From assembly GCF_004010195.1 (NCBI RefSeq), contig NC_057754.1, positions 13,236,224 through 13,300,223 of the forward strand: a stretch of DNA of 64,000 nucleotides, read 5' to 3'. The first letter of the stretch is position 1. Each line of letters begins with the position of its first letter. Source of the stretch: Chiloscyllium plagiosum. Lineage: Eukaryota. Below the pieces are notes generated by a model. It did not search any database. It worked only from the letters and a program-made list of their open reading frames with translations, and was not told where the DNA came from. This document shows, piece by piece, positions 1-58,850 of this stretch. The translations under genes were made by a program, and so were the position numbers.

Positions 1-780
1 CTACTGTCTGTTCCCCATTGCAGTCACCCTGCCCTCCCCTGTCTGTCTCCCATTAAAGACGCTATGGCATCCAATGCCTATATCCCAATGCAGACGCTAT
101 ACCCTCCAATTTCGGTATCTCATTGCAAACGATATGCCCTTCCCCTGTCTGTCTCCCATTGCAGACGCTATGGCATCCAATGTTTATAGCCCATTGCAGA
201 TGCTATACCCTCCAATGTCGGTATCTCAATGCAAACGATATGCCCTCCCCCTGTCTGTATCCCATTGCAGAAGCTGTGCCCTCTAATGTCTGTATCCCAT
301 TGCAGACGTCCTGCCCTCCACCGTCTATATCCAATTGCAGATGCCCTGCCCACACCTCTCTGTATCCCATTGCAGACGCGCTGCCCAGCCCGTCTGTATC
401 ACATTGCAGACGCTCTGCCCTCCCCGTCTGTATCCCATTGCAGACGCTCTGCCCTGCTCCTGCTTGTCTCCCATTGCAGTCACCCTGCCCTCCCCCTGCC
501 TGTATCCCATTGCAGACGATTTGCCCTCCCCCGTTTGCTTCCCATTGCAAATACTCTGCCCTGCCCCGTCTGTCTCCCATTGCAATCACCCTGCCCTCCC
601 CCTGCCTGTATTCCATTGCAGACGATTTGCCCACCCCCGTGTGTATCCCATTGCAGATGCCCTGCCCTCCCCGTCTGTATTTCATTGCAGACGCACTGCC
701 ATTCCCCAGTCTGTATCCCATTGCAGTTGCTCTACCCTCCCCCTGTCTGTTTCCCATTGCAGGCGGTCTGTTTCCATTTG
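1..780. repeat. Minisatellite, ~39-40 bp unit with core TGTATCCCATTGCAGAC; runs off the window start
   Basis: About 20 successive copies of (t/c)cccattgcag with C-rich spacers; explains the repetitive ORFs at 74-812. Confidence 0.95.
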
Positions 781-4045: not shown

Positions 4046-4356
4046 ATAGTAAGCAAGGACATACAGATCAGAGCGGAAAGGGAAAACTGAGGCATACAGG
4101 CTACACCACTAATGGCATGCAATAGCCAAGATCAACGTGAGCAAGATCAGCATTATTTGAAGTTAGACAGTACATTCCTCAGTTTATTAATGACTGGGAA
4201 GATGCTGTTCATGAGACGCAGGTTTGTGTGTTCAAGTTTCTGTATTGTCTGCCTGATGGAAGAGATTTTAGGAGATCCAGGGTGCGAGGGATCGTTAATA
4301 ATGCTGTTTGCCTTTCCGCTGCAGCGAGCTGTGTAAATGAAATCAATGGATGGGAG

Positions 4357-4560
4357 CTGAAAATGTGTTGCTGGAAAAGCGCAGCAGGTCAGGCAGCATC
4401 CAAGGAGCCGTAGAATCGGCGTTTCGGGCATGAGCCCTTCTTCAGGGCTCTTGCCGGAAACGTCGATTCACCTGCTCCTTGGATGCTGCCTAGCCTGCTG
4501 CGCTTTTCCAGAAACACATTTTCAGCTCTGATCTCCAGCATCTGCAGTCCTCACTTTTTT
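4357..4560. mobile_element. Penelope-derived fold-back element with hammerhead-like core
   Basis: Imperfect inverted repeat centred ~4440; 14-bp TSD TCAATGGATGGGAG at 4343-4356 and 4561-4574; minus strand reads CTGAAGA-A-GGGC-TCAT-GCCC-GAAAC-GCC. Confidence 0.85.
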
Positions 4561-5984
4561 TCAATGGATGGGAGGTTGGCTTACATGACGGCATGGGCTG
4601 TGCGCACAACCTTCTGTCATTTCTGTTACTGTCCTGGGCTGGGCTGTTGCCACACCAGGACGTTATGCACCCGGATGGTTTGCTCTCAGTGGTGCATTGG
4701 TAGAAATTGGTGAGGGTCGTGTGGACATGCCAAATGCCCTAAGCTGCCGGAGAAAGAAGAGGTGTTTCTGTGCCATCTCGACTGTTACATCTCCATGGGA
4801 AGTCCAGGACAGGATGTCAGTTATCGTCACTCCGAGGAACTTAATTCTATCCACCCTTTCAACTTCAGTTCCATTGATGTAGATGGGGGCGTGTTCTCCT
4901 CCTTTCTTTCTGAAGTCATTGATCAGTTAGTTAGTTTTGCCGACGTTGAAAGAGAGCTTGGTCTCATTGCATCACATCACCAAGCCCTCTATTTCCGCTC
5001 TGTATGTTGACTTGCCTTCATTACATATCTGTCCTACTATGATGGTGTCATCAGTGAACATGCAGATGGCATTCGTTCTGAATTTGGCAATACAGTCGTG
5101 GGTGTACAGGGAGTATAGTAGGGGGCTAAGGACACATCCTCTGGGATTTCAGTGTTGAATGTTATTATGGAAGAGTCACAGTTACTTATCTTCTCTGATT
5201 GTGGACTGTGGGTCAGAAAGCTGAGGATCCTGTTGCAGAGGGCGGAGCCGAGACTGAGGTCACGAAGTTTTGTGATCAGTCTGAAGGGAATAATGGCGTT
5301 GAAGGTGGAGCTATAATCAATGAGCAGGAATCTGACGTAGGTGTCCTTGTTGTCCAGATGTTCCAGGGATATGGTACCGCTATCGACCCATTCTACTGGT
5401 AGGAAATTTGTAGGGGATCGAGGCAGGCTGGGAGACTGGAACTGATGTGCGCCATGAATAGCCTCTCGAAGTACTTCATGCCCCCCTCAGTCTCCTGCGC
5501 TCTAAGGAGAAATGTCCCGGCATATCCAACCTCTGCCTATGACTCAGTCTTGTAAGTCCTTGCAACAACCTTGCAATTTTTCAGTTTAATAACATCCTTC
5601 CTGTAGCAAAGTGACCAAAACTTATCACAGTGTTGAACATGGAACTATTTGGAACTGTAAGTTTTACTCTGTTATCAATTATTGTACTGCTGTGTTATTG
5701 TTTCATTATTTGTGATATTCTGAAATCTTATTATGTTTAAATCCTCTAATGGCAATCCCCTCGGGTGAACGTCCTCCTGACTGCTTGAACTTGAATTTTG
5801 TTTGGACAGGTATTTTGAGGCCGCTGCATATCAGAGAACAGGAGAGATGATGGATGATTGTGCAGTGTGTGTCCTTGACTGGACCGGCTTGTCTCTCCAG
5901 GCACCTAAAGCTTTTATTGTGGGTCAGAGTACCTCAGAATTGTTACATCACAGAAGGAAGCTATTCAGCCCATTGTAGGTCCAT

Positions 5985-14152: not shown

Positions 14153-14860
14153 GAGTTGGCCATTTGGCGGCACGATTCAGAATGCTCAGAATGATCTGAG
14201 TGTGTCTGACCATCTGTCTCCTGTCTGTTCCCAATAAACATTAACTCTCCTGTCCGGCAAAGATCAGTCAAGCTCAATCTAGAATACCTTCATTAACCGA
14301 GTCTTCACTGCTCCCTGAGGATGAGGACACAACAGACAGCACAACCCTAAATGGAAAGGGGCATCCTTCTTTCATTGTGAGACCCATTTTGTAAAAACTG
14401 TGTTAACCTCACATCAAATCACTGCCCCTTTTCGGATATAGTGGTACACTAACTAGGAATAGACATTAACCATTCTGCCCTCCAATCTTTTCCCACATTA
14501 CCACTGACACTTTCCAATCAAATATGCTGCTGCTGCTGTCTCAGGAAGAGAATACCTGATAACAGAACAACGCACGAGCATTAAAAAAGGAGCAGAATTA
14601 GACCATTTGGCCTACTGAATCGGATATGCCATTCAATCATTTCTAATACGTCCCTCGACATCATTCTCCTACCTTCTCCCTAGAATCCTTGGTCTCCTTA
14701 TAAATCAAAAACGTATTTATTTGTGTATTAATGGCACTCATGTCTGTGTCTTAATGTGTATTTATGTGTGTGTATGTCTCCATGTGCTTGTTATCTGTGT
14801 ATTTGCGTGACTATGTCTGTCTGTCTTTGTATCAGCCTGTGTGTTTCTATGTGTGTTTGT

Positions 14861-15155
14861 TAGATTAGATTAGATTACTTACAGTGTGGAAACAGGCCCT
14901 TCGGCCCAACAAGTCCACACCGCCCCGCCGAAGCGCAACCCACCCATACCCCTATATTCACCCCTTACCTAACACTATGGGCAATTTAGCATGGCCAATT
15001 CACCTGACCTCACATCTTTGGACTGTGGGAGGAAACCGGAGCACCCGGAGGAAACCCATGCAGACACGGGGAGAACGTGCAAACTCCACACAGTCAGTGG
15101 CCTGAGGCGGGAATTGAACCCGGGTCTCTGGCGCTGTGAGGCAGCAGTGCTAACC
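14861..15155 (-). mobile_element. Young HE1-type V-SINE (tRNA-derived), 5'-truncated within the A box
   Basis: B box GGTTCAATTCC, V domain, (AATCT)n tail; GTTTGT TSD at 14855-14860 and 15157-15162; absent from the paralog at ~32965. Confidence 0.93.
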
Positions 15156-16505: not shown

Positions 16506-17787
16506 ACTCGTGGGTTCTGCTGTAATAATGGATGGTGTCAAGTTGCATCGAAACTGCGTTAACTAAGTGAAAAATGTTGTGAAAAATAAATTCCATAAGT
16601 GTATATCAGGTAGGTTGAAGAGTATGTTGTGAACCAAACGAGAGAGCAGATTATTTCGGATTTGGTATTACTAACCTTGCCCTGAAGCAGCTTTGGAGGA
16701 ATAGTGACATTAATATGTTGTGTTTTACACGGTGTCTGCATACAATATGGAATGTTTGAACAATCTGGTCAAACATTATGGAAGCTCAGACGCTAGAGGG
16801 TCAAGTTAGCTCCGATGAAATGGGGAAGCACAAAATAACATTCAGTGGTTGTTAGACTCATAGAGTCTTACAGCACGGAGACAGGCCATTCGGCCCAAAC
16901 TGGTCCATTCCGAACAAACTGTCCATTCACACTAACCCCATTTCCCTGCCATTTTCCTGTATCCTTCTAATCCTTTCCTACCTGTGTATTTGTCCAAGTG
17001 TTTTTTTAAATTTTGTGAATGTACCCGCCTCGACCACTTCTGCTGGCATGTTCATCCCATATGTGTGTAAAAGAAATTGCCCCTCAGGTTCCCTTTTACT
17101 CTTTCCCCTCTGACCTTAAATTGATGCCTTCGAGTCCGTGATCGCCCAATCCTGCGGAAAAAAAGCGACTGAGTGCATTCACTGTATCCATGCCTCGCAT
17201 GATCTTATACACTACTATCACATCCCTCTCAATCTCATACATGTTAAAGTAAAAACCCCTAGCTTTTCCAACCTCTCCCTATAAGACAGACCATTGAGTC
17301 TTGGCAATATCCTTGTAAATTTCTTCTGCACTCTTTCCAATTTAATAACATCCTTCCTCGAGCAAAGTGAACAAAACTGAACATGACGCTACAAGTATGG
17401 ATTCGCCAGCATCTTGTATAACTGCAACATAACTCCTTAATTTCGATACTCGGTGCTCTGACTGATGAAGGACAGTGTGCAAAATGCCTTTTTCAGTGCC
17501 TTGTCTCATGGGACTCCACTTACAGAGAACCATGCCCTTAAACTCCAAGGTCCCTTTGTTCCACTACACTCCTTAAGACCCTGCCATTCACCATCAAACC
17601 CCTAGCTTGATTTGACTTTCTAAAATGCAAGAACTTACACTCATCTGTATTAAACTCCATTTGCTATTTCACGGCCCACTTCCCCACCTGATCAAGGTAC
17701 TGCTGTAATTTCTGAAATTTCTGATAATCTTCCACACTGTCCACAATCCCGCCTATTATAGTGTCACCTTGAAACTTACAAATCATG

Positions 17788-17999
17788 GAGGAGAAAGTGA
17801 GGTCTGCAGATGCTGGAGATCAAAGTTGAAACTTTATTGCTGAAACAGCACAGCAGGTCAGGCAGCATCCAGGGAACAGGAGATTCGACGTTTCGGGCAC
17901 AGGCCCTTCTTCAGGAAGAAGGGCCTGTGCCCGAAACGTCGAATCTCCTGTTCCCTGGATGCTGCCTGACCTGCTGTGCTGTTCCAGCAATAAAGTTTC
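17788..17999. mobile_element. Young Penelope-derived fold-back element with a minimal hammerhead core
   Basis: 90-bp arms (17823-17912, 17915-18004) with one mismatch and a 2-nt spacer; 15-bp TSD AACTTACAAATCATG at 17773-17787 and 18000-18014; empty site at ~35262-35276. Confidence 0.92.
17880..17917 (-). ncRNA. Putative minimal hammerhead ribozyme (Penelope type)
   Basis: UUC-CUGAAGA-A-GGGC-CUGU-GCCC-GAAAC-GUC-GAA: catalytic boxes, 4-bp stem II, GUC triplet, no intramolecular stem III. Confidence 0.65.
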
Positions 18000-18056
18000 A
18001 ACTTACAAATCATGCCTGTACATTCTCATCTAAATCATAAATATGCGTAATAAGTG

Positions 18057-18081
18057 AATATATATATATATATATATATAT
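18057..18081. repeat. (TA)n microsatellite
   Basis: Directly visible; sits where copy 1 lacks ~100 bp present in copy 2. Confidence 0.9.
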
Positions 18082-18599
18082 TCTTCTTCCTATCATCAAG
18101 CCAATTTTGGATCTTATTTGCCAGTTCCCCCTCAATTCCATGTGATCTAACCTTCCAGAGCAGCATACCATGTGGAAACTTATTGAAGGCCTTACTGAAA
18201 TCCATATAGACTATTTCTGCAACCATGTCCTTATCAAAACTACTGGTCACTTCATCAAAGCACGCTAACAAATTTGTGAGCCATGATCCCCCATGCACAA
18301 AGCCCTGTCTTCCCAAATGCATGTATATCTTCTCTTTCAGAATCTTCTCAAGTAACTTAACTGCTACAGATTTTAGGTTTCCTGGTCTATAGTTCCCCAA
18401 TTTTTTTTGCAGCCCTTCTTGAATAATGGCACAGCATTCGCTACTCGCCAGTCTTCCGGGATCTCACCAGTTGGCTACTGATGATGCAAAAGTAACAACC
18501 AGGGCCATCTATTTCTTCTCTGACCTCTTGAAATGATCCTGAATATATCTGGTCAGTACCAGGAGATTTATACAAATACTACGAAGTCTGAAAAATATG

Positions 18600-21500
18600 T
18601 CTATTTATTTCAGGTAAAAAACACCAAAGAGTGAGAAAGTGATTTAACAATGATTATCATAAGAAATTAAAGATTATATTCATCACAGGAAGTGACTTCA
18701 GAAGAATTCTAGACATTGTGGAATCCTGAGAATTCTCGGAAAATTGTGATCCAGAAAAGGAGCGCCATGAATCTGGTAAGGAAATCAAAAAGTGAACATG
18801 CATGTAAACAAATAGGAACACAAAGACTGAATAAATCCATGATCTATATTTCAAAGGGGAAAAAAAAAAGCATCGTCAAATGTGGAAATTTTCAATTGGG
18901 AGAGACGAGTTTATTGTGGATAACTTGGAAATGACCAAGCAAATAACCAGTTACTTTGCTTCTGTCTTCATGGAGGGAGATCCAGAAAATCACCCAGAAA
19001 TACGAAGTGATCATATAGGTCTTGTGGAACGAAAGACATAAAGTCAATTGATATCAGAAATAAGGCTTTACTTGAACATGCAGCTGGATTGAGCATTGCT
19101 AAGGTTGACAAACCAGACGTACTTCATACTAAAATCTTCAGGAATAAACCACTAATAGAAGTATTAATGTCGATGACTGTGTTCTATTTTCCAGTGCATT
19201 CTGCAGAGTCTGGAAGCCATTGTAGATAAATGGACATTAGTAAATGTGATCCAAGCACTATAGATGAACGGAAGGGATCCAAGTATCTACAAAGGGAAGA
19301 AGATATAGTGTGGAGAACTGCAGACCAATTAACTTGACAATTGTCGGGAAACTGTTGGAATCTATTATATAGGATGTGATATTACTTATTTAGAAATTAA
19401 CATCAACATTGGAGAAAATCAGTATGCACGTCTGAAAGGGAAATTATACTAGACAAGCTTTGGAATTGCTTGAAGTTGATTCTTACAGTATAGATATTGG
19501 GGAACCGTAGAATTGGCAAATTTTCGATTATCAGAAGGCTTTCTATAAGAAATCACACAATGAGTTTGTAAATGTAATGAATGTCAAGGGTATTTGGAGG
19601 AATATATGCAAGTGATAAGTTAAAGTTTGGATTCCCTTCCTTTAAGGGATTCAGAATATAGATGTAAAAACATGTTGAAGCAGTTTAACAGCGTGTTGGT
19701 GAGAACTGTGTCTGGAATATTGAGTACAGTTTTCGTGACCAAATCTGAGAAAGAATATACTGACCACAGAGGAAGTGCAATGGACGTTCTCCAGATTAAT
19801 CCCTCAGTTGGCGAGATTGCGTGTTGAGGAAACTTGGCCTTTGTTCTCGAAACTATCAAAGAATGAGAGGCGAGTCACTGAAATTTATAAAATTCACAAA
19901 ACATGTGACAAGTTGGAAATTAACAGGATGTTTCTCCGGCTGTCTAATCCACATTTAAAATAAATAATGGCAGGATAAAGGACGACCATTTAAAACTGCC
20001 ATAAGGAGGAGATTCTGCCCACGTAGGGGACTAACTAACACAGGGGCATGGAAACTTGCTGACAGGGCAAGATAACGGAGAATGCCCAAAAATTCTACAA
20101 GTGTGTCCAGCAGAACAGAATAATCAGGGAACAGGTAGGACTCATTAGTGACTTGCCAAGTTGCATGCAAATGAACTTTAGTGGTAGGAGACAGAAGGTG
20201 ATGGTAGACGGCTACTTGTGTGACTGGAGGCAAGAGTCCAATGGTATACCACAGGGATCAGTGCTGTGCCCCTTATTATTTGTGATTCGGAGGTGCTGGT
20301 GTTGGACTGGGTGGACAATGCTATAAATCGCATAACACCAGGTTAGAGTCCAACAGGTTTATTCGGTGGCATTAGCTTTCGAAGCGCTGCTTCTTCATCA
20401 AAGCGCACAATCACCTGATGAATCAGCAGCGCTTCGAAAGCGAGTGCCTCCGAATAAACCTGTTGGACACTAACGTGATGTTGCGTGATTTTCCACTTTA
20501 ATATTTGTGGTATTGATACATAATGTAGCTGTGAATATGGAGGAGGTGTAGGGAGTGTTATAAGTCAGTTTGTATTTGATACGCGGATTGGCCGGTCGGT
20601 TGGCAGTGAGGAGGAAGGCCTGAGGTTATGGGAAGATACAGATGGAATGGTCAGCTGGGAAGATCAATGGCAGATGGAATGTAACCCTGATAAATATGAG
20701 GTGATACACTTTGGAAGATGGAACCAGACAGGGGAGGATTCAATAAATGGCAGCATAATAGAAAGCTCAGAGGGTGCTTCTCCACACATCCCTGAATGTA
20801 ACTGTACAGGTTAATACACAATTTGGGAAAGTATAGGGGACTGTAAACATAACCTTGATTCATTGAGGCACAGATTATAAGAGCTATGCAGAACTTTGGT
20901 GAGACCAAGATGTAATACTGTGTGTAGTTCTGGGAACCACATTACAGGAAGGATATGATTGTACTGGAGGGGGTGCAGAGGAGATTCACCAAAATGTTCT
21001 CCGGCTTGGAGCATATCAGCTATGGAGAGAGGCTGGATAAGCTCGGGTGTTTAGTTTGGAGCAGAGAAGGCTGAGGGGGCCGTGATTCAGAAGGATAGCA
21101 TTATGAGGAGCGTGGACAGGGTAATGGACAGCAGCTGTACCTTTTAGTCAAATGGCCACACTTTTAAAGTGAAGGGTTTGCGGTTTAGTGAAGATTTGAG
21201 GATTGTTTTTCACCCAGAGGGTGTTGGGGTCTGAAGTGCACTTCCCGAGAGGGGAGTTCTCATGATAAACTCAAAATCATTAGAAAATACACTGTAGTGC
21301 ACTTGAAATGCCTTAAGACTCACGGCGACGGTTGTTGTGTCGGAAAGTGGGTCTAATGTAGACCGTGCTGTATTTCTGATAGTACACAGTCTTTGCTTCT
21401 GTGATTGTATGACTGTGGAAGGACAATCACTGAGTACCTTAAAATAGGAATTGATAGGTTTATGAAGAATATCTTAACAACGTTTATAAGACAGAACTTG

Positions 21501-27110: not shown

Positions 27111-27884
27111 CTTTTGGAAATTAACTGGTTATTTTCCTAGTCATGGTGTTGGACAATGTTGCATTCAGGGACAGCAGAGGATTCGTTTGGGTTAACCCTG
27201 GGTGGAGTATGGGGGCTGTATTCCCAGCGTATCTGGGCCTGTAACATGACCCACATCTGGAGCAGAGGTTACAGAGGGGGAAAGCCTGGAAAGAGGTCTT
27301 GGGGGTGGGGGTCGGTTCCTGACCCAGCCTGGATTTACCAAGTACATTTCTGAAACGACACCTAACCATCGGAGTGGCCTCGATCTGCCCTTGTGTAGCA
27401 GGCCCGAAAGGCTGAACGTAACATCAGAACACAGGGCTGACGGACACGACTGGGCCATTCGGCCATTTGACACTACTCCACCAGTAAATAAGGTCGTGGT
27501 TCATCTCATTGTGTACCCAGCTGCACTTTGCTCTCCATGTACCATTATCCCTGATTCACCTGTCTATGGAAAATTAGACGAAACCAGTCTCGATATAATA
27601 ATAAGATTCAGCCATCCCAAACCTCTGGGAAAGAGAATTCCCACTGGAATGAATTCCCACTTGGTGAATTTCACCTAATTCCTGCTCTGACTGAGGTTGG
27701 AGGGTGTCACTGTTTCCTTTTCTAGTCCCACTCCTCCACTGCTCCCAACAAATTTTAAATGTAACCAGGTTGGTGATATTTTCGATCATAAAGGTCTCAG
27801 ACTGGGTCAGGTTCAATGACAGGAACAAGTCAGGCAGGTTTCTTTAGTCAGCCACAAATAACTAATAGAACTAACGAATGTACA

Positions 27885-28235
27885 TGGTGGACCTGTGGTT
27901 CGCACTGCTACCTCCCATCACCAAGGAGCTGGGTTCAATACCAACCTCGGGTGAAGGTCTCTGTGGAGTTTGAGTATTCTCTATGCAGGTATCTGTGTGG
28001 GTTTCCTCCAAATGCTCCAATTTCCTCCCACAGTCCAAAGATACGCAGCTTTGAGTGGATTGGAGATACTAAACTGCCCATCGTGCCCAGGGATGTGTAG
28101 GTTAGGTAGGTTAGTCATGGGAAATGAAGGGTCACATGTATAGGGTAGGGGTGCAGATCCGGGGGAATGCTGTTCGGCGGTTCAGTGTGGACTTGATGGA
28201 TGGGATGTCCTGCTTCCATACTGTAGAGATTCTGT
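27885..28235 (+). mobile_element. Older HE1/V-SINE copy
   Basis: gtggttcgcactgct, B box gggttcaatacc, tgtggagtttg...ttcctcccacagtccaaagat; paralog at ~51503-51845. Confidence 0.85.
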
Positions 28236-28729: not shown

Positions 28730-31700
28730 GGGGGAATCCAAGATGGCGGCGATCCGGAAGGTCTGCTTTACTGGGGTCTGCATCACAGCACGGGTAAAGT
28801 GGTTTTCTAACCCACCCCATCCCAGCCATTTACTTAACATTCAACACTAAAAAGAGCGATAGAAGCTTTACTAATCCCGTTTTGCCAAGTGGAAATGACA
28901 AAACACGGGAGAGGATCGAGTAAGTCCCAACACGCGGTGTACCCGTCAGAAACATCGAGCATGCATGAGGCTGTAGCTGCAACCCACTCTGCTAGTTCGA
29001 AGGACCCAGTTACTCACCAGGCCTTGGTCACTGAGTTCACCAATTTACTTGCAATGATTGAAGGTATGATTGAACAAAAGTTCAGCTGTGGTGAGAACCG
29101 CTGTCAGACGTGCTCCAAAAACATGAGCAGCAACTAGACAGCCTTGAAACAGAACAGACAATGTCATGCACAGAAGCATTGACAGAGACTGTGATCGATT
29201 CTTCTCGGGAGAGGATCCTCCCCCTTGAAATGCAGGTCCGTACCTTAGATGAACAGGGACAGGATGAAGAATGTTCACATCGTCGGTCTGCTGGACCAGA
29301 CGGCAGGTGGTCAGCTAGTGAGTTTCTTCGAGATCTGGCTGCTGTGATTCCTTCAGTTCGAAGCTGAAGAGGGACGTGTGAAGACTAAGACAGTTCATCG
29401 GGTTACGACGCGGAGGTTAGACTCAGACCAACGCCTTCGCCCTTTCCTTGTGCAGTTACATAGTTTTAGGAATAAGCAAAGACTGATGGAAGCTCAGTGT
29501 GGTTTCCGATGGCTTTAATTCACGAGAACTCCAGGATTATGTTCTTTCAGGACTTTTTAGCAGTGGTGATTCCGAAAACAAAACCTTTTGATGATATCAG
29601 TAGAAGAGTAAGGGAACTCGGGATTCAGTATTCCTTACGGTTTCTAGCGGTGCTCCGTATTGCTTTGAGTGGATCAATGAACTCGTCTAACTCCCCAGAG
29701 AAAGCGAAAATTTTGTGGACATTTTAAAGTAAGCTGAATGTTTAGATAATCATGTTTCTCTCTTAAAAAAATTTTATTGGAATTTTCTGGTATTAACCAG
29801 TGTTAAATTATAGTCGGGGATGGGTAGAGTACACACTATTAACTTCTTCATTAGTATTACTACTCGTTTTCTCTTTCTTTGCTTGTGTCTGAGGTGTGGC
29901 CCAAGCTGGAAGGAGTTAGAATGGTATTTGTGATGACTAAGTGCCGACCAAAGGGCAGTTGACGCCCGATATTTGTTATTAATTGCCCTGGATGCCATTT
30001 TGGTAGCGGGCAGAAGATAAAGTTTTGTGATATGTAAGCGTCCCCATTTGGCAGGGTGTGGGGGGGGGGTGGTAATTCCCCTATAAAGTGTCATTGGCAC
30101 TTTGGATTTGTTTCGTTCTTTGTTTTTTATGTGGCTAGCTTTGGAAAGTACTGAGAGCTTGTTAGCTGTAATAGTTTTAGTTTGTACAGTTTTTAGGCTC
30201 GATGAGTCATTTGTCATTAATGCTCAGCGATGTGCAATTCGATGTGAAACACTCTCGAGTTCAAATGTTGCTACAGAGTGTTATGGATAATTATGTGCTT
30301 AAATGGTGTACCTGAAACATTAAGGGGAGCCACCTGCCAGTCAAGAGGAAAAATGTAATTTCTCGTCTTAAAAAAACAGAGGGTGGATGTTGCCCTATTG
30401 CAGGAGATACATTATGATGACAAGGAACATTTGACGTGACAGCAGGGCTGCTTTGATCGGGTTTATTTCTCGCATTTTAATACTAGGAGTAGGGGAAAAG
30501 TCATAATGGATACGAAGAGCCTTCCATTTAAATAACGAGATTGTATTAAACACTCACGGATGGATCATAATCCTCAAAGCCTTAAACTATGGGAATTAAT
30601 ACAGTATTTTGAATGTTTATGACCACCCGGCGCATCCTCTTAAAATCCTGGTAGATGCATTTCCCAAATTAAGTTATCTTGCATCGTGGAACCTTATTGT
30701 AGAAGGAGATTTCAACTGCCTTATGGACACCACGGTAGACAGAATGTCCAAAGGTCCCCCAATACCCTCATTATAATGTAAGCAATTAGTGAATTTGTGT
30801 GCAGAACTTCAACGCGGTGGATGTCTGGAGGCAGATCAACCTCACAAGTAGGGATTTTATTTTCTTCTTTAACCCGCAGAAATGGCACACGAGGGTTGAC
30901 CTCTTCCCCATACCTGCAACAATCTTGGATTCGGTGGCATCCTGTAAAATTGGGAATATTACCCGAACATACCTTCCCCAGAGGTGGGATAGAAGTCACA
31001 TAAGATTATGTTGTATGCAGATGAAGGTCTTATATTTTTGTCAAATCATGCAATTTTGGTAGCTCCCGTGATGCAATGCATTAATTCGCTTGTCGCCATT
31101 TCGGGCTTTAAGATTAATTTCACAAAGTTTGAGGCCATGCCTATGGGAGGTCTTGGGAAAATACCTGATGTTGAGGGCAAATCTTGGTTTCTTTTTAAAT
31201 GGTCACGGGGGTGTGGGGGGGGGATGATTTGTCTATTTCAGTGTATCATTACATCCGGTTTTGATCATTTATTTAACGTGAACTATATCCATTTGTTTGA
31301 CAAAATTAAACAAGACTTTCAAAGATGGGAGGCATCTCCAATATCCTGCCTAGGTCGGATAGCTGTTCTTAAAATGAATGTCCTGCCTAATTTACTATAC
31401 CCCGTGTGAATGCTTTCTTTGATGTTTCCCAGACAGACATTTAGGGACTTTGTGGCTGGTTTAGCTCTTTTATTTAGCATCATAAGCGACTCTTTATCAA
31501 GCTAACCAAATTGTAACTACCTCACAGATTGTGGGGAGTAGATCTCCCAGATTAAAAGCTATGAATTCAGCTCTTTCTTATCCTATGTTAGCGCCTGAGC
31601 CGCTGAGGACTCGGCGTCAATAGGGTTAAATATTGAACCATTTCAGACAAAGTGAACCCTTATTAGTCTGTTGGTCTTAGACAAAATGACAACATTTATG

Positions 31701-32420: not shown

Positions 32421-35400
32421 ACACGAGTCTTAACTGCTCCCTGAGGATGAGGACACCACAGGTAGCACAACACTAAAGTGAAAGGTACGTCCTTATTTCT
32501 TGGTGGGACCTGTTATTTTAAAACTTTGTTAACTGAACTTCAAATCACCACCTCTTTGCAGATATAAGGACAGAATAATTATGAATAAACATAAACCATT
32601 CCGGGCTCCAAACCTGTCCCACATTCCCACTGAACCTTTCCAATTGAATATGTTTCAAACCCAGCCTCTGCTGCTGTCTCAAGAAGAGAATACCTGTTAG
32701 CATAGCACCACATGAAAAAAAGGAGTAGAATTAGGTCATTCGGCCCATCGATTCTGATATGCCATTCAATAATTTCTTATATGTTCCTCAACCTCATTCT
32801 CCTGCCTTCCCCCAAGAATTCTTGATCCCGTTATAAAACAAAAAACTTATCAATTTGTGTCTGTGTCTACATGTGCGTATGTTTGTCCATCTGCTTGTCA
32901 TCTGTGTATTTGTGCATCTACGTTTGTCTTTCTGTGTATCAGCCTGTGTGTTTCCATCTATGTTTGTGTCTATTTGTGTGTGACTCTATATGTCTGCGTG
33001 TGTTCTTACGTGTGTGTATGCCTATTCCCTTGTATGTATTGTGTTGTTCGTATATTGGGGTGATACCAATGATACTGTGTATTTCTGTGTCTCCATCTCT
33101 GTGCAGTGAGGTAACTGTATTTGGGGGGGGGGGGGGGGTGGTGGTGGTGGGAGTTAAGGGACTGTCGTGAGAATTGCATTTCACTGAGCACTGCTCCTTA
33201 ATCGGTCAGTGGGACATGGATGTTTCAAAAATTTCACGCGAGGCATCCCAGTCCGCTTCATCTTGTATTAGGTTCCTCCCGACATGGCGGATGTGGGGGA
33301 GGGGTGAGGGAATGGATATTGGGTACTCCACCACCCGGCTTGGCCATTTCTGTCCTATTCCAGGCTGTTTCTCTTGGAATAGAAGAAAGGGATGGAAGGA
33401 GTGAGGGCAGGAGTGGATGTCCTTGCTGTTAGTGCTGGTGGAGGTGGATCTGGGAGGAATTGTGAGGCGTCCAGAATAAGGCAGTCGACAGTTTTGAATC
33501 CATATTATATTATTAATGTGTGGGCGTATTGCGTAGGTGACAGAGAAAGTGTGGGAAGGAAGTTGCTGAATTCAATAGTGAGAGTGGTAGTGCCTGAGCC
33601 TTATTTGGAGATAGAGCATGAGAATTTTCTGGGGGTAGGTGCTATAACAGATATACAGAGAGGGTGACGGAGCAGAGAGAATTCGGTGACCATTATCCTG
33701 ACAGAGTGGGGAGGATATTGATGCTTGTCCTGTACTGATGGAGATATCTTCAGATCATCTCAGCGTCGAGATGAGCCTCCCCGAATGTCCTGTCCAAGTC
33801 TATCACTAATAATGACACAGACCTGTCCCTCAGATTCCACATAATCAGTTTATGTAGAACTCACAAATAGCAAGGCGCAGCAAATATTGGTGTGTTCTAT
33901 ATCGGTTGCAGAAAATCTGAGCATCATATGCTCTGGAAATTAGATATGCAAGTATCATGGATACTGCAGTTTTATTGGATATTCTCAAGTTGCATCTAAA
34001 CTGTATTAACTCAGTGTCTGTTTATGCTGTGCAAAATAAATTCTGCACGTGTATGTGAGGTGGGTTGAAGAGTATGTTGTGAAGCAAACTATAGAGCAGT
34101 TTAATTTGGGTTTGGTGTTGTGTAATCAGAAGGAAGAATTAATAACCTTGCTCTGAATCAGTTTTGAAAGAATAGAGACGTTAATAAGGTGCATTTTACA
34201 TGGTGTCTGCATGAATATAGAATGCTTGAACGTTCTGGTTAAACATCATGGTCGCCTGGAGGCTAGAGGGTCAAGTTCACTCCAGTGAATTGGGAAAGTA
34301 CAATATAACATATAGTGGGAGCCAAGCAATATTTGTTGGAGTCATAGAGTCAGACAACACGGAGACAGGCCCTTCGGCCCAAACACGTCCATTCCGACCA
34401 AAATGTCCATCCACGCTAACCCCATTTCCCTGCCGTTGTCCTGTATCTTTCTAATCCTTTCCTGTCCATGTATTTGTACCAATGCCTTTTAAATGTTGTG
34501 AATGTTCCCGCTTCAACCACTTCCGCTGGCACATCATTCCTTATGCATATCACCCCTGTGTGAAAAGCAGTTGGTCCTCAGGTTCCCTTTTATTGTTCCC
34601 CCTCTGACCTTAAACTGATTTCCTCTTGTCCGTGATTGCCTAACCCTGGAAAAAAAAAACAGAGTGCATTCACTCTGTCCGTCCTTTCCATGACCTTATA
34701 CACTTCTCTCAGATTCCCCCTCAGCCTCATACATCTAAAGTAAAAAGTTCTAGCTTGTCCAACCTCTCCCAATAACTCAGAACATTGAGTCCTTGGCAAC
34801 ATTCTTGTAAATTTCTTCTGCACTCTTTCCAGTTTAATACCATCCTTCCCATAGCAAAGTGAACACAGCTGACCATAACGCTCCCAGTATGGCCTCACCA
34901 GCATCCTTTATAATTGTAACGTAACTCCCTAATTTACATACTTAGTGATATACACTGATGAAAGCCAGCGTGCCAAAAGCTTTCTTCACTGCCCTGTCTA
35001 CCTCTGAATCAATTTTCAGAGAACTATGCATATGAATTCCAAGGCCCGTCTGTTCCACTACACTCCTTCGGACCCAACCATTCACCATGCAACTCCAACC
35101 TTGATTTCACTTCCTAAAATGCAAGAACTTACACTGATCTATATTAAAATCCATTTGCCATTTCTCAGCCACTTCTCCAGGTGATCAGGCTACTGCTGTA
35201 TTTTCTCTGAAATTTCTGATAATCTTCCTCACTCTCCATGATGCTGCCTATTTTGTCTTCAAACTTACAAATCATGCCTGTACATTCTCATCTAAAACAT
35301 AGATATATGTAATATGTAGTGGACCCAGCACTAACCCATGAGGCTTTCCATTAATCACAGGCTTTCAGGCTGACAAGCATCCTTCCACTATTACCCTCTG

Positions 35401-35616: not shown

Positions 35617-35710
35617 GCCGGGCTTTTCCCCAAAACATTGATCTTCCTGTTCCTCGGATGCTGCTTGACCTGCTGTGCTTTTCTAGCACCACTCTAATCT
35701 TGCTCCTAAT
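35617..35710 (+). mobile_element. Single arm of a Penelope terminal-repeat fragment
   Basis: gggcttttccccaaaacattgatcttcctgttcctcggatgctgcttgacctgctgtgc matches the arm of the 17788-17999 family; missing at ~18303. Confidence 0.7.
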
Positions 35711-37283: not shown

Positions 37284-37475
37284 ATTCGGAGGTGCTGGTG
37301 TTGAACTGGGGTGAACAAACCTAAAAATCACAGAACACCAAATTATAGTCCAGCAGGTTTATTCAGAGGCACGAGCTTTCAAAGCGCACAACCACCTAAT
37401 GAAGAAGCAATGTTTCGAAGTTAGTGCCTCCGAATAAACCGGTTGGACTGTAACCTGGTGTTGTGTGATCGTTAA
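37284..37475. mobile_element. Paralog of the 20285-20496 fold-back element, more decayed
   Basis: Same position in the host CR1; right flank CCTTATTATTTGTG at 37476-37489. Confidence 0.8.
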
Positions 37476-38255: not shown

Positions 38256-38560
38256 AGATTAGATTAGATTAGATTAGATTACTTACAGTGTGGAAACAGG
38301 CCCTTCGGCCAACAAGTCCACACCGCCCCGCCGAAACACAACCCACCCATACCCCTACATGTACCCCTTACCTAACACTACGGGCAATTTAGCATGGCCA
38401 ATTCACCTGACCTGCACATCTTTGGACTGTGGGAGGAAACCGGAGCACCCGGAGAGAACGTGCAAACTCCACACAGTCGGTCGCCTGAGGCGGGAATTGA
38501 ACCCGGGTCTCTGGCGCTGTGAGGCAGCAGTGCTAACCACTGTGCCACCGTGCCGCCCAC
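38256..38560 (-). mobile_element. Young HE1-type V-SINE with intact 5' end
   Basis: A box TGGCACAGTGG, B box GGTTCAATTCC, (AATCT)5 tail; ~20-bp internal deletion relative to 14861-15155; absent at ~21266. Confidence 0.95.
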
Positions 38561-49878: not shown

Positions 49879-52800
49879 CGTTCATCAGGCATCCCTGAGA
49901 AAGTGACAAGCAGATTTGATAAAGGGCACTGGTCAACATGAGGCTTTCCAGAAAGTTTTCACAAGGTATCACAAAATAAACGTTCTGACACAAGACAGAG
50001 GCTTGTAGTATGATGAATAATATATTTGCATGGCATAATGGTTGCTTAACACATAGAAATCGGAGAGTCAGGATTAATGGATCTTTATGATAAAGACGTA
50101 TCTACTGGATTACCACAAATATCAGGCCGATGGCATCAGTTATGTACAATCTATACTGATAGCCTGACGGCGGGAGCTGGGTGCAATATACATCGGAGTT
50201 TGTGGATGACTTTGAGAACCAAAATGCAGGTTGCTATTTAATGAAGAGGACTCCCAAAAAAGGAGTAGTACAAAGGGATTGTAGTGTTTCTGAGTATGAA
50301 ACGTAACGTCAGCATGCTGATGCAGCAAGTAACGAGATTGGTTCATGAGGCGGCTTCCTGGGATGGAAGAGTTGAATTATTGAATACATTTAAAATGATA
50401 AGGAGATTATTCATTGTGGTTGAAATGAGGGTGATATTACGGAATGTACAAGATACAGAGGGGCCTTGACAAGGTAGATGTTTCCCCTGAGTTTCGAACT
50501 CGAGGTGGTAGTTACAGAAAAAGAAACATCGACTTCAGTCTGAGGTGAAAAATGATGCATTCTCTCAGAAGGTAGTGAATGTCTGCAATTCCCTAACCCA
50601 GAGAGTTTTGGAGGGATGCAAGAAATTGGGTAGGAAAGTAGAGTTGAGCCCGGAAATGAATCAGCCATGTTCTTATTGAATGAGAGTTCAGTCTTGAGGG
50701 GCCGAATAGCCGTCTCATGTTCCTACTTCTTAGTTTTTCATGTCATGCTTTTGGAAAGTAATTGATTATTTTCCTGCAAGTCGTGTTGTACAATGTTGCA
50801 TTCGTTAGAGGAGAAAATTTGCCTGAGTTAACCCTGGATGGGATATGGGAGCTGCATTCAAAGCAATTCCAGAGCAGAAGTTACAGAGTGGGGAAGCATG
50901 GAAAAAGGGATAGCGGCTGGGGGTCACTTCCTGACCGAGCCTGGAATTTTCAAGTGCATTTCCGAAACTACAACTAACCATCGGCGTGGCTTCCATCTGC
51001 CTGTTTGTAGCAGGTCAGAAGGGCTGAATGGAACATCAGAACATAGGACTGAGGGACACGAGTGGGCTAAACGGCCCTTTAACACTACCCCACCAGTAAA
51101 TAAGGTCATGGCTCATCTCATTGTGGTCCCAACTGCACTTTTCTCTCCATGCCGCATTATCCCTGATTCACCTGTCTATGGAAAATCAGACAAAGCCAGC
51201 CTCGATATAATATAAAGATTCAACCATCCCAAACTTCTGGGAAAGGGAATTCCCACTTGAGTGAAATCCGACTTTGTGAATTTTTCCTCACTCCGGTTCT
51301 GACTGAGGTTGGAGAGTGTCACTGTTTCCTTTTCTCGTCTCACTCCTCCACTGCTCACAACAAATTTTAAATGTAACGGGGTTGGTGATATGACCGATGA
51401 TAAAGGTCTCAGACAGGGTCAGTTTCAGTGATAGGAACAAGTCAGACAGATTTATTTCGTCAGCCGCAGGTAACTAATAGGGCTAATGGAGCAGCCTGTT
51501 AGATTTGTGGTTAGCACTGCTGCCTCATATCAGCAAGGAGCTGAGCTCAATTCCAGCCTCGTCCGACATTCTATGTGGAGTTTGAACATTCTTCCCGTGT
51601 CTGTGTGGGTTTCTTCCCAGTTCTCCAGTTTCCTCCCACAGTTCAAAGATGTGCAGCTTAGTATTATTGGCCATGCTAAATTACCCAGAGTATCAGGGAT
51701 GTGAAGGTTAAGTGGGTTAGTCATGGGAAATGCAGGGTTACATGGATAGGGCAGGGGGACTGGTCTGGTAGGAAACTGTTCAGTGGGTTGGTATGGACTC
51801 GATGGGTCGAATGTCCTGCTTGCACACTGCAGGGGTTCAATGACAACAGCATCAAGTTTGGGCTGTACAAACTTCCAGTCAGTATGTACCTGGTTCACTC
51901 GCCTCAAGGCTTTGCATATTTCAATACAATCAGCTCTCACTCCAAGGGTAACCTGTTAAAGTCCACATAATATCAGCCCTTCATGCATGGAATAAATGAA
52001 GTGAAACATCTCTGAACTGCTTCCAGTGTTACTATACACTTTCTCAGATAAGGATGCAAAACTAAAAGTAATCTCACACACCGTTGAGTCGATTTATTTT
52101 TGTTTGCTCAGGGTGCAGTGAGTCTTTGGAACACTCTTCCCTGCAGACCATTCGAGACAGAGATATTGAATATTTTTGAAGCAAGGTTCACGAATCACAA
52201 AGGAGTCAAGGATTATCGAGGAGTGGGCAGCAATGTGCAGTGTTCGGGAAAATGTAGACAGTGGTACTGAATGACACGGCTCCAGAATATCCAGGAATTA
52301 AACGAAATGATAACATCGATAAAGTTTTAACTGGGAACAAGATGGAAGCGATCTGAAAGGTCAGCTTTGCTGATCTCTGCATCACAATAATGCTGTACCC
52401 CACCCCACCACAGTCATTTACTCACAACTGAACACTAAAAGAGCTATAGAATCCTTACTAATGCCATTTTGTCAAGTGGAAATGACAAAACATGGGAAAG
52501 TTTCGAGTAAGTCCCAACACGCAGCGAACCCTTCAGAATCTTTCAGCATGTCGTGGCCGCACTGGTAACACCCTCTGCTCGTTCAACGGACCGAGTTACT
52601 CACCAGGATTTGGTCACCGAGTTCACCAAGTTACGGGAAATAATTGAAACCATGATTGAAGAAACATCCAACAGTAGGATAGAACCACTCTCAGCACTGC
52701 TCCAAAAACATGAACAGCAACTTGAAAGGCTTGGAAGGGCGAGGTCGAGCACCAAACTGCAGGGGCAGAGTCTGTGATCGATTCCTCTAAGGAACGGACC

Positions 52801-54355: not shown

Positions 54356-56039
54356 AGAACATAGAACATTACAGCGCAGTACAGGCCCTTCGGCCTCGAT
54401 GTTGCGCCGCCCTGTCATACTAATCTGAAGCCCATCCCACCTACACTATTCCATGTCCGTCCATNNNNNNNNNNNNNNNNNNNNNNNNNNNNNNNNNNNN
54501 NNNNNNNNNNNNNNNNNNNNNNNNNNNNNNNNNNNNNNNNNNNNNNNNNNNNNNNNNNNNNNNNNNNNNNNNNNNNNNNNNNNNNNNNNNNNNNNNNNNN
54601 NNNNNNNNNNNNNNNNNNNNNNNNNNNNNNNNNNNNNNNNNNNNNNNNNNNNNNNNNNNNNNNNNNNNNNNNNNNNNNNNNNNNNNNNNNNNNNNNNNNN
54701 NNNNNNNNNNNNNNNNNNNNNNNNNNNNNNNNNNNNNNNNNNNNNNNNNNNNNNNNNNNNNNNNNNNNNNNNNNNNNNNNNNNNNNNNNNNNNNNNNNNN
54801 NNNNNNNNNNNNNNNNNNNNNNNNNNNNNNNNNNNNNNNNNNNNNNNNNNNNNNNNNNNNNNNNNNNNNNNNNNNNNNNNNNNNNNNNNNNNNNNNNNNN
54901 NNNNNNNNNNNNNNNNNNNNNNNNNNNNNNNNNNNNNNNNNNNNNNNNNNNNNNNNNNNNNNNNNNNNNNNNNNNNNNNNNNNNNNNNNNNNNNNNNNNN
55001 NNNNNNNNNNNNNNNNNNNNNNNNNNNNNNNNNNNNNNNNNNNNNNNNNNNNNNNNNNNNNNNNNNNNNNNNNNNNNNNNNNNNNNNNNNNNNNNNNNNN
55101 NNNNNNNNNNNNNNNNNNNNNNNNNNNNNNNNNNNNNNNNNNNNNNNNNNNNNNNNNNNNNNNNNNNNNNNNNNNNNNNNNNNNNNNNNNNNNNNNNNNN
55201 NNNNNNNNNNNNNNNNNNNNNNNNNNNNNNNNNNNNNNNNNNNNNNNNNNNNNNNNNNNNNNNNNNNNNNNNNNNNNNNNNNNNNACTTCAATCCAAGTT
55301 CTCGCTTGCCAGTGTCAGATACTTGATTTTAGAACTCCCTACTCTCATCCTCTTCCGTACATTTTCTACAATTTTGGTTCCCATCCCCCTGCTCTATTAC
55401 TTCAAACACATTTTAATAGCTTTCGTGAATTTCCCACCCAGGATAATGGTACGCCTCTGGTTTAGATGAAGACCATCCTGCTTGTAGAGGTCCCACCTAT
55501 CCCAGAATAAACTCCAATTATCCAAAAACCCGAAACCCTCCCTCCTGCACCATCCCTGTAGCCACGTGTTCATCTCTTTTCTCTCCATATTCCTCACCTC
55601 ACTAGCACGTGGCACGGGCAGCAAACCAGATAAAATAAGTCTGTTTGTCCTAGCTCGAACCTTCCATCCTAGCTCCCTGAATTTCTGCCTCAAGTTCCCA
55701 TCTCTCTTCCGACCTATGTGGTTGGTGCCAATGTGGACCACGACTTGGGGTGACTCTCAACCACGCAAATATAAACTGTTCTACTTACCCTTCCCAGAAG
55801 TCCTTTGCTCGCTCCTTCCTCGCTGGCCTGAAGGTAAGAAGTTTAAATCTACTTACCGGCCTTCCTGACAATCACCTCGTACAAACGTCACGTCCTCCAG
55901 GCTCCCGCCTCTCGCTGCTCCGAAATGGACAGTTGGCCTGAAGATAAGAAGGTTAAATATACTTACTGGCCTTCTTGACAATTACCTCGCACCAATGTCA
56001 CATCGTCCCGGCTCCCGCCTCTCGCTGCTCCGAAGTGAG
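54356..56039 (-). mobile_element. CR1/HER1 LINE retaining 5' UTR, SGNH-esterase part of ORF1 and tail; middle lies in a gap
   Basis: ORF 55397-55741 VHIGTNHIG...LSGLLPVPR...WCRREGFGF...DGLHLN; (CATAGAA) tail at the left end; CAT on both flanks; empty site at ~48093-48097. Confidence 0.92.
54465..55285. other. Assembly gap, 821 N
   Basis: N run. Confidence 1.
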
Positions 56040-57719: not shown

Positions 57720-58850
57720 AAGGTGAATAACAGGAAATTAGAATTATAAAAAAAATGTATTTGAAAGTATCATTGAACTGAAGGTTTGTAATTTGATGCA
57801 TCTGATGAGCTACTTCCAAGAGTATTGAGGAAGTACCAACAGAGCTAGTAAAATAATTATTGATTATTTTTCAAAGCTGCTTCGATTCTGGAAATGATCC
57901 TCTGACTGGAAAGCAGCTATAGTGAAACTAAATATTTGAAACAGATCGGAGTGAAAAAAAAACAAACAGAAAACTAGATACCTTGATGTCAGCTGTGAGG
58001 AAAAAATATAATTGTAGCCTGTTATAAGAATGTAGATTAGTGGTGCTAGAAGAGCACAACAGTTCAGGCAGCATCCAAGGAGAAGCAAAATCGACGTTTG
58101 GGGCAAAGGCCCTTCTTCATAAGAATGGGACTACTTAACACTTGGAGAATAATTATTTGATTTGGTAGAGTTGGCCTATATTCAGGAAAGGGAAATAATC
58201 TTTGATAAACGTGCTGGGGTTTGCGGAGATTGTCCGTTGTGACATCACTAATTGAGAACCAATGGGAGTGGAGTATTCGAATTTTCAGCAGTCGCTTGAC
58301 ATGAATGAATACAGGTGTGGAGGGAATGTTAGTGTCCATGGGTAGCTAGGGGTGGAATATATGCCATCTGGCTAAAAATTGGGTAATGGAGATACGAGAA
58401 GAGTAGTGTTTTTCTCTGGACTGAAGTCTTGTTAGTTATCAGATGGATCACTGTTTGGACAATAGCTGTTCACATGGTATAAAATGATTCAGATGCGAAC
58501 AACAAATATCATTATTCTATATTTATATTTCTTGAATAGTGCGACAATGGGTAGTGCTGTTTTTGAAAAGGACCTGGATGTCCTTGGTCAAAAGTCACAA
58601 ACAGAATTCTTACGGGGCAGGAAGTAGATGATACGTGCGTCTTCATGCAAAATCATTGAAGTACCAGAGTTAGTATATCTTTCACAATGGTAGTGTTTTG
58701 TTGAGGGAGCATTTGCTGCTTTGTGTACATATTTGTTCTGCTTTTTAAATCATGATCTCTTTGTCACGGAGACAATGCAAAGGAGGACTAAACCCTGGCA
58801 TGATAGTACCATCAGGAGAGAGTGCAGTAACTCTGTTTTCAATCTGTAGC
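57720..58850 (+). mobile_element. Very decayed CR1/L2 RT fragment containing a Penelope-arm fragment at ~58030-58122
   Basis: LLPRVLR, DWKAAIV and KDLDVL remnants; caggcagcatccaaggagaagcaaaatcgacgtttggggcaaaggcccttcttca. Confidence 0.65.

What the first reader, a model, noticed from the sequence alone, without database searches (positions are those of the whole stretch)
17773..18014. Near-perfect 90-bp hairpin retro-insert carrying a minimal hammerhead ribozyme, with its empty site in the same window
Seen: a 212-bp insert with two 90-bp arms (1 mismatch, 2-nt spacer), a 15-bp TSD and the uninterrupted target at ~35262. The minus strand reads CUGAAGA-A-GGGC(CUGU)GCCC-GAAAC-GUC. The right arm ends in AACTT, which is also the start of the TSD. 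Known: Penelope-like element terminal repeats carry minimal hammerheads lacking stem III, proposed to cleave as dimers. Inference: either a recently mobile non-autonomous fold-back derivative or a 5'-inverted truncated Penelope insertion. A transcript through it would form long dsRNA that sequesters the ribozyme.
Basis: partly seen in the sequence, partly recalled or inferred. Interest (0 to 1): 0.7.

Follow-up and report, generated by a model that had tools for sequence, protein, structure and literature searches.

The report
Head-to-head Penelope retrotransposon stub
This 212-base hairpin is a real, young insertion whose layout matches that already described for Penelope-type jumping genes (two mirror-image end pieces, a one-sided 35-base tail, a duplicated target); it is likely a dead stub built at landing, and its ribozyme is predicted to be inactive, so it is mostly ordinary.

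Summary
Observation confirmed: insert 17788-17999, arms of 90 bp (89/90 alike), exact 15-bp target duplication (TSD), complete minimal hammerhead core on the minus strand only. The 'empty site' is a paralog in an old tandem duplication (77.5% identical), not an allele. Head-to-head terminal repeats plus a one-sided 30-40-bp tail plus TSD is the published signature of endonuclease-positive Penelope-like elements. A second hairpin of this family (4349-4557) has the same tail end but another centre; two single-arm copies also lie in the window, and RNA reads of a related organism show four further centres. All six arms stop 19-30 nt upstream of the predicted cut, so the template was likely uncut RNA. 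Best model (inferred): both nicked target strands prime copying at the element's two known start sites, and the two cDNAs join by 3-nt microhomology. A self-propagating hairpin family is unlikely. No link to the parent RT/GIY-YIG gene could be tested. The scan noted this pattern before on other DNA (166 findings, at least 20 genomes). Interest low.

The parts
17773..17787 (+). left target-site duplication, 15 bp
17788..17822 (-). one-sided 35-bp tail; its outer end matches the family's sharp 3' end (likely the outer reverse-transcription start)
   Evidence: loose ends pile up at 17788-17790 in 4 of 4 DNA runs and tail-tail tandem joints 17821/17822 to 17787/17789 occur; tail definition in PMC8557442 and PMC11167929
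17823..17917 (-). long (tailed) arm: terminal-repeat fragment, sense on minus, 5' end 3 nt upstream of hammerhead C3
   Evidence: relatives' contigs continue upstream with other letters (table 7)
17884..17917 (-). minimal type I hammerhead motif: core 17914-17908, extra A, 4-bp stem II, palindromic ACGU in place of stem III, predicted cut between 17887 and 17886, stem I 3 bp
   Evidence: features as in PMC4209133
17915..17917 (+). 3-nt microhomology (GAA) at the head-to-head junction, shared by both arms
   Evidence: sequence
17915..18004 (+). short (tail-less) arm, sense on plus, starts at core G5 so its hammerhead lacks C3-U4; ends in a 5-nt overlap with the TSD
18000..18014 (+). right target-site duplication, 15 bp
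35262..35276 (+). single, uninterrupted target in the paralogous unit
4349..4557 (.). older hairpin copy of the same family (B): arms 79/90, 14-bp exact TSD (4343-4356, 4561-4574), tail on one arm, different centre
58034..58119 (-). single-arm, tail-less copy (C), 5' end at U4, possible 8-9-bp TSD
35620..35700 (+). single-arm, tail-less copy (D), 5' end at stem II, no TSD found, absent from the paralog near 18303
18038..18463 (-). decayed LINE reverse-transcriptase fragment: the host sequence next to the insert, not its parent
   Evidence: Pfam RVT_1 E 4e-7, translation; CR1-like assignment is recalled

Best explanation
The insert has the published layout of an endonuclease-positive Penelope-like element (PLE) insertion and is likely a dead stub assembled at landing from two short cDNAs of uncut element RNA. 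Inferred steps: the PLE enzyme nicks both target strands 15 nt apart; the top-strand 3' end primes at the outer start site and gives the tailed arm; the bottom-strand 3' end pairs over 5 nt with the RNA at the inner start site, 35 nt upstream, and gives the tail-less arm; both cDNAs stop at or just before the hammerhead core (probably near the 5' end of the RNA) and are joined through a 3-nt microhomology; fill-in yields the 15-bp TSD. The hammerhead is a passenger: it did not define the ends and is predicted not to cut in this copy.
For: Shown here: arms, tail, TSD, both microhomologies. Copy B repeats the design with its own centre, the tail-less arm ending at the same place of the repeat (offset +90 vs +91) and a 3-nt overlap with its TSD. 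The family's outer end is sharp: 977, 670, 1101 and 680 contigs have unrelated flanks before 17789 in 4 of 4 DNA runs of relatives (of 32770, 34403, 39276 and 29671 laid), and many copies continue upstream of the core. Raw RNA reads: 16 of 2958 laid reads show four strand-switch joints (17883, 17899, 17906, 17907, each with 17917), none equal to this copy's. All 6 of 6 arms in the window have 5' ends at -3 to +8 from C3, while the predicted cut is at +27/+28. In B the unpaired centre belongs to the tail-less arm, which simple fold-back of the tailed strand cannot give. Published: inverted 5'-truncated copy and one-sided 30-40-bp tail (PMC8557442, passages); inverted pLTR, 31-bp tail, 8-10-bp TSDs, palindromes at head-to-head junctions (PMC3846280, passages and Discussion); the purified anole enzyme cuts and extends both strands, starts at two sites whose distance is the tail, and uses uncut RNA, hammerhead mutants being as good (PMC11167929, parts 1-2 of 4).
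Against: No parent element was seen: none of 81 window ORFs hit a GIY-YIG family and the one RT hit is the flanking LINE, so PLE origin rests on layout and motif. This copy's own junction is a small palindrome and fits fold-back equally well. Hairpin centres are remodelled after insertion: two paralogous copies of one insertion of a second family differ by 19 bp at the centre, so differing centres, and B's asymmetry, could partly be later deletions. In vitro, priming was at sites not homologous to the target and did not differ between strands, whereas here both tail-less arms of hairpins show 3-5-nt overlap (n = 2). The read joints come from one run of a related organism, each class may be one locus, and 17917 was the end of my reference. 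Confidence splits: PLE stub about 0.9; two-primer assembly about 0.55.
Confidence: 0.6

Rival explanations
1. A PLE stub in which the mirror arm arose by fold-back self-priming: one strand (the first cDNA, or an antisense RNA as Arkhipova et al. propose) snaps back at TTC-AG-GAA, copies itself for 90 nt and is joined to the second target end through the 5-nt overlap.
For: The junction is a palindrome and the tailed arm reaches furthest 5' in this copy; arms are 89/90 identical and share subfamily variants in both hairpins; PMC3846280 reads junction palindromes as self-priming.
Against: In B, and in the second family's hairpin, the extra centre bases belong to the tail-less arm; fold-back gives no reason for the short arm to stop at the same repeat position in A and B, nor for tail-less single-arm copies C and D.
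Confidence: 0.27
2. A self-propagating non-autonomous hairpin element: the whole 210-nt unit is transcribed and re-inserted by a PLE enzyme, with centres diverging later.
For: A and B have the same outer ends and near-equal size; centres can change after insertion; 2 of 4 insertions of the family in the window are hairpins.
Against: Six different centres (A, B, four read classes); single-arm copies; outer ends are explained by the two published start sites; the template would be a duplex of about -181 kcal/mol; A and B belong to different sequence variants (80% alike).
Confidence: 0.07
3. Ribozyme cleavage sets the element's ends (retrozyme-like unit), and the hairpin is an off-switch.
For: Intact core on the minus strand; family variants above 10% in the motif fall at N7, loop II, one stem I position and one CpG, not in the core; one read class (3 reads) turns at 17883, which with the stem I overlap is the cut site.
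Against: All 6 arms extend 19-30 nt upstream of the cut; no head-to-tail tandem; the plus-strand core is broken; such motifs cut weakly and only as dimers or with protein.
Confidence: 0.04

Closest known systems
Insertions of endonuclease-positive PLEs with inverted pLTR, one-sided tail and TSD (Adineta vaga Pen2a/Pen3a, PMC3846280; Fig. 2 legend of PMC8557442; passages read)
   Same: Head-to-head terminal repeats, palindrome at the junction, 30-40-bp tail on one side, TSD.
   Different: No ORF at all between the repeats; arms of only 90 bp; TSD 14-15 bp against 8-10 bp.
Poseidon element of Anolis carolinensis (PAc), PMC11167929 (parts 1-2 of 4 read; supplements searched, no hits)
   Same: Two start sites one tail apart; both target strands cut and extended; hammerhead without stem III; uncut RNA used.
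   Different: The parts read do not show head-to-head products; priming there needs no homology; clade of this family not determined.
Minimal hammerheads (min-HHR) of metazoan PLEs, PMC4209133 (parts 1-2 of 4 read)
   Same: Core, extra nucleotide between 9 and 10.1, G10.1-C11.1, palindromic 15.2-16.2; pairs on opposite strands 100-700 bp apart are mentioned there.
   Different: Stem I is 3 bp here (4-5 there); stem II 4 bp; the second core is truncated.
Non-LTR retrozymes (bioRxiv 10.64898/2026.07.22.740005; part 1 of 5 and passages read)
   Same: Non-coding, PLE-related, type I hammerhead.
   Different: Retrozymes are head-to-tail tandems with a complete motif in each unit; this is one inverted pair with one complete motif.
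Twin priming of LINE-1 (recalled, from no call)
   Same: Second target end primes inside the RNA by microhomology and makes an inversion.
   Different: In L1 the two parts do not overlap; here the same 90 nt are copied twice, which needs two RNAs or re-use of one.

Membership tests
EN+ Penelope-like element insertion | terminal repeat carrying a hammerhead motif | tested here: met
EN+ Penelope-like element insertion | adjacent inverted 5'-truncated copy, head to head, with palindromic junction | tested here: met
   definition
EN+ Penelope-like element insertion | 30-40-bp tail at one end only | tested here: met
   35 bp in A, also in B; sharp outer end in relatives
EN+ Penelope-like element insertion | target-site duplication | tested here: met
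   15 bp in A with empty paralog, 14 bp in B
EN+ Penelope-like element insertion | repeat continuous with an RT + GIY-YIG ORF in long copies | not testable with these tools
   no genome held; 0 of 81 window ORFs with GIY-YIG; 17 metagenome and 0 viral pattern hits, none longer than 31 nt
minimal hammerhead (min-HHR) | core CUGANGA / GAAA / NUH, extra base before stem II, G10.1-C11.1, palindromic 15.2-16.2 | tested here: met
   minus strand only
minimal hammerhead (min-HHR) | stem I of 4-5 bp | tested here: not met
   3 bp, the upstream strand being cut by the junction
minimal hammerhead (min-HHR) | self-cleavage as dimer or with protein | not testable with these tools
   predicted buried in the hairpin
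Rfam hammerhead families | covariance-model match | tested here: not met
   0 hits at gathering score in the window; none of 16 hits at E up to 10 in 17700-18100 is a hammerhead
non-LTR retrozyme | head-to-tail tandem units, each with a complete hammerhead | tested here: not met
MITE / fold-back DNA transposon | symmetric fixed termini on both sides (criterion recalled) | tested here: not met
   one-sided tail, single-arm copies, variable centres

The most novel reading that the evidence does not exclude
Such stubs are a fossil record showing that PLEs insert by double target-primed reverse transcription: each nicked strand primes at one of the two start sites on uncut RNA, both cDNAs run off just upstream of the hammerhead core, and they fuse by microhomology. 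That one mechanism would explain the inverted ends, the one-sided tail and the junction palindromes of the whole class. My searches found no paper stating it, though other agents of this scan proposed it.
Probability: 0.45. Interest if true: 0.5.

Novelty: new member of a known kind. Interest (0 to 1): 0.2.

Why it matters
As a single locus it matters little: it is one of very many copies of an abundant repeat, in LINE debris, with a published architecture. Its value is as a clean, young example with a known empty target. PMC8557442 calls the origin of PLE tandem and inverted structures 'still undefined'; counted genome-wide, such stubs can decide between two-primer assembly and fold-back, and can show that the hammerhead does not set the ends.

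Tried and rejected
Whole-genome copy survey: no genome held. Rfam: no hammerhead hit; the miRNA hits are generic hairpin matches below gathering score. Parent search: the 17 metagenome hits match over at most 31 nt and were dropped as chance; 0 viral hits. Pfam on 81 of 109 ORFs of 95 aa or more (28 left out: those over N gaps or the tandem array at the window start) gave only LINE-type RT and an esterase-like domain. No host exon was identified in 14.3-31.7 kb, so no transcript through the insert is known. No RNA holder was listed for the stretch; run X22 laid 0 reads (no test); no pile-up of read ends in X21, which a fragmented polyA library would not be expected to show. A>G differences at 17823, 17843 and 17876 occur in DNA contigs too, so they are no evidence of editing. 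Both strands of the family are present in RNA, but no read was tied to this locus. No listed contig settled whether relatives carry this insertion (tables cut). Depth decline towards 17917 was not used, being confounded with the end of the reference. Unconstrained co-folding of two single arms gave no hammerhead dimer fold. Lunse et al. 2016 was not held; dimer cleavage is cited from PMC4209133 and passages of PMC6765202. The label 'shark' is recalled and stated in earlier notes; I did not test it.

Full report
Observation. Every sequence claim holds. The insert spans 17788-17999 (212 bp) between exact 15-bp repeats; arms 17823-17912 and 17915-18004 are 89 of 90 complementary around a 2-nt spacer; the right arm's last 5 nt are the TSD's first 5. 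The strand folds at -191.5 kcal/mol, z -27. A strict minimal-hammerhead descriptor finds one hit in the window, on the minus strand at 17914-17887, against a mean of 0.0 in 40 random windows. Rfam does not see it.

Setting. The window is largely a tandem set of paralogous units 75-92% alike, full of old repeats. The target at 35262 is in the next unit (77.5% identity over the 1.3-kb left flank), so it shows the pre-insertion state but is not an allele. With arms at 99% and an intact TSD, the insertion is far younger than the duplication. The flank is a decayed LINE (RVT_1 at 18038-18463, minus). No host gene was identified.

Anatomy. Read in element sense, the two arms diverge from the centre (head to head). 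The minus-strand arm begins 3 nt before C3 of the core and carries 35 extra bases at its 3' end; the plus-strand arm begins at G5 and lacks them. Three bases at the junction belong to both arms. Only the minus strand has a full core, its stem I is 3 bp, and in a transcript of either strand the core and stem II are predicted paired.

Other copies. Copy B (4349-4557) has the same design: arms 79 of 90, exact 14-bp TSD, tail on one arm, tail-less arm ending at offset +90 (A: +91), but its centre differs and the unpaired bases belong to the tail-less arm. C (58034-58119) and D (35620-35700) are single arms without tail. The six 5' ends lie at -3, +2, -1, +7, +1 and +8 from C3; the predicted cut is at +27/+28. 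In four DNA contig runs of related organisms the repeat is very abundant, ends sharply at 17788-17790 with unrelated flanks, often continues upstream of the core with a CUGAUGA version, and shows tail-tail duplications of 33-36 bp. In one raw RNA run 2958 of 12,955,460 records were laid, on both strands; 16 of them mark four strand-switch joints, none equal to this copy's, each with one arm reaching the end of my reference just upstream of the core. The second run laid none.

Comparison. PMC8557442 describes an inverted 5'-truncated copy and a 30-40-bp tail often at one end only (passages). PMC3846280 gives the same with TSDs and junction palindromes, and proposes self-priming on an antisense template (passages and Discussion). 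PMC11167929 shows that a purified PLE enzyme cuts and extends both strands, starts at two RNA sites whose distance is the tail, and does not need hammerhead cleavage (parts 1-2; its text supplements gave no hits for my terms, and figures are not held). PMC4209133 defines the minimal motif, notes pairs on opposite strands, and finds no cleavage as monomer and little as dimer (parts 1-2). The layout and the motif are therefore known. The link to an RT + GIY-YIG gene could not be tested.

Mechanism. Most likely both nicked target ends primed copying, one at each start site, on uncut RNA; the cDNAs stopped near the core and were joined by microhomology. This accounts for tail asymmetry, the shared inner end, tail-less single arms and B's centre. 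Against it: A alone fits fold-back equally; and paralogous copies of one insertion of a second hammerhead family (20325-20491, 37324-37469) differ by 19 bp at the centre, so centres change after insertion and are weaker evidence than they look. Why the 5' ends cluster is untested; run-off at the RNA's start is a lead from earlier notes, and the extra G that one note predicts was not seen in C or D.

Verdict. A real, young, ORF-less PLE-type stub; new member of a known kind. My reading was set before the first look-up; 166 earlier findings in at least 20 genomes hold the same search words, and these are not independent evidence. Searches for a two-primer model in print returned none, within a library that lacks most subscription journals. 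Interest 0.2.

Noticed in passing
window 20325-20491 and 37324-37469: A second hammerhead-bearing family forms a head-to-head hairpin with a one-sided tail and about 12-bp TSD; its two paralogous copies differ by 19 bp at the centre between 6-bp direct repeats, showing remodelling after insertion.
   Followed up: partly
window 14300-64000: Tandem paralogous units of up to about 18 kb at 75-92% identity, with four N gaps; no host gene identified.
   Followed up: partly
window 29784-29873, 27474-27574, 27684-27774, 21013-21102: Short stretches at least 92% identical between otherwise 75-79% alike units; possible small exons or regulatory elements.
   Followed up: no
window 14860-15155, 27883-28085, 38264-38552, 51507-51697: Four copies of another dispersed repeat of 200-300 bp, SINE-like by recall.
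   Followed up: no
window 55400-55756 (minus): ORF fragment with a GDSL-like lipase/esterase match (E 3.4e-9), probably ORF1 of a LINE (recalled), next to a 110-bp tandem duplication at 55824-56034.
   Followed up: no
window 4-770: Degenerate 35-bp tandem array, about 22 copies.
   Followed up: no
run X21 reads on window 17883/17917: Three reads turn strand at the two halves of stem I, which is also the predicted cut site; either a cDNA of cleaved RNA or plain microhomology.
   Followed up: no
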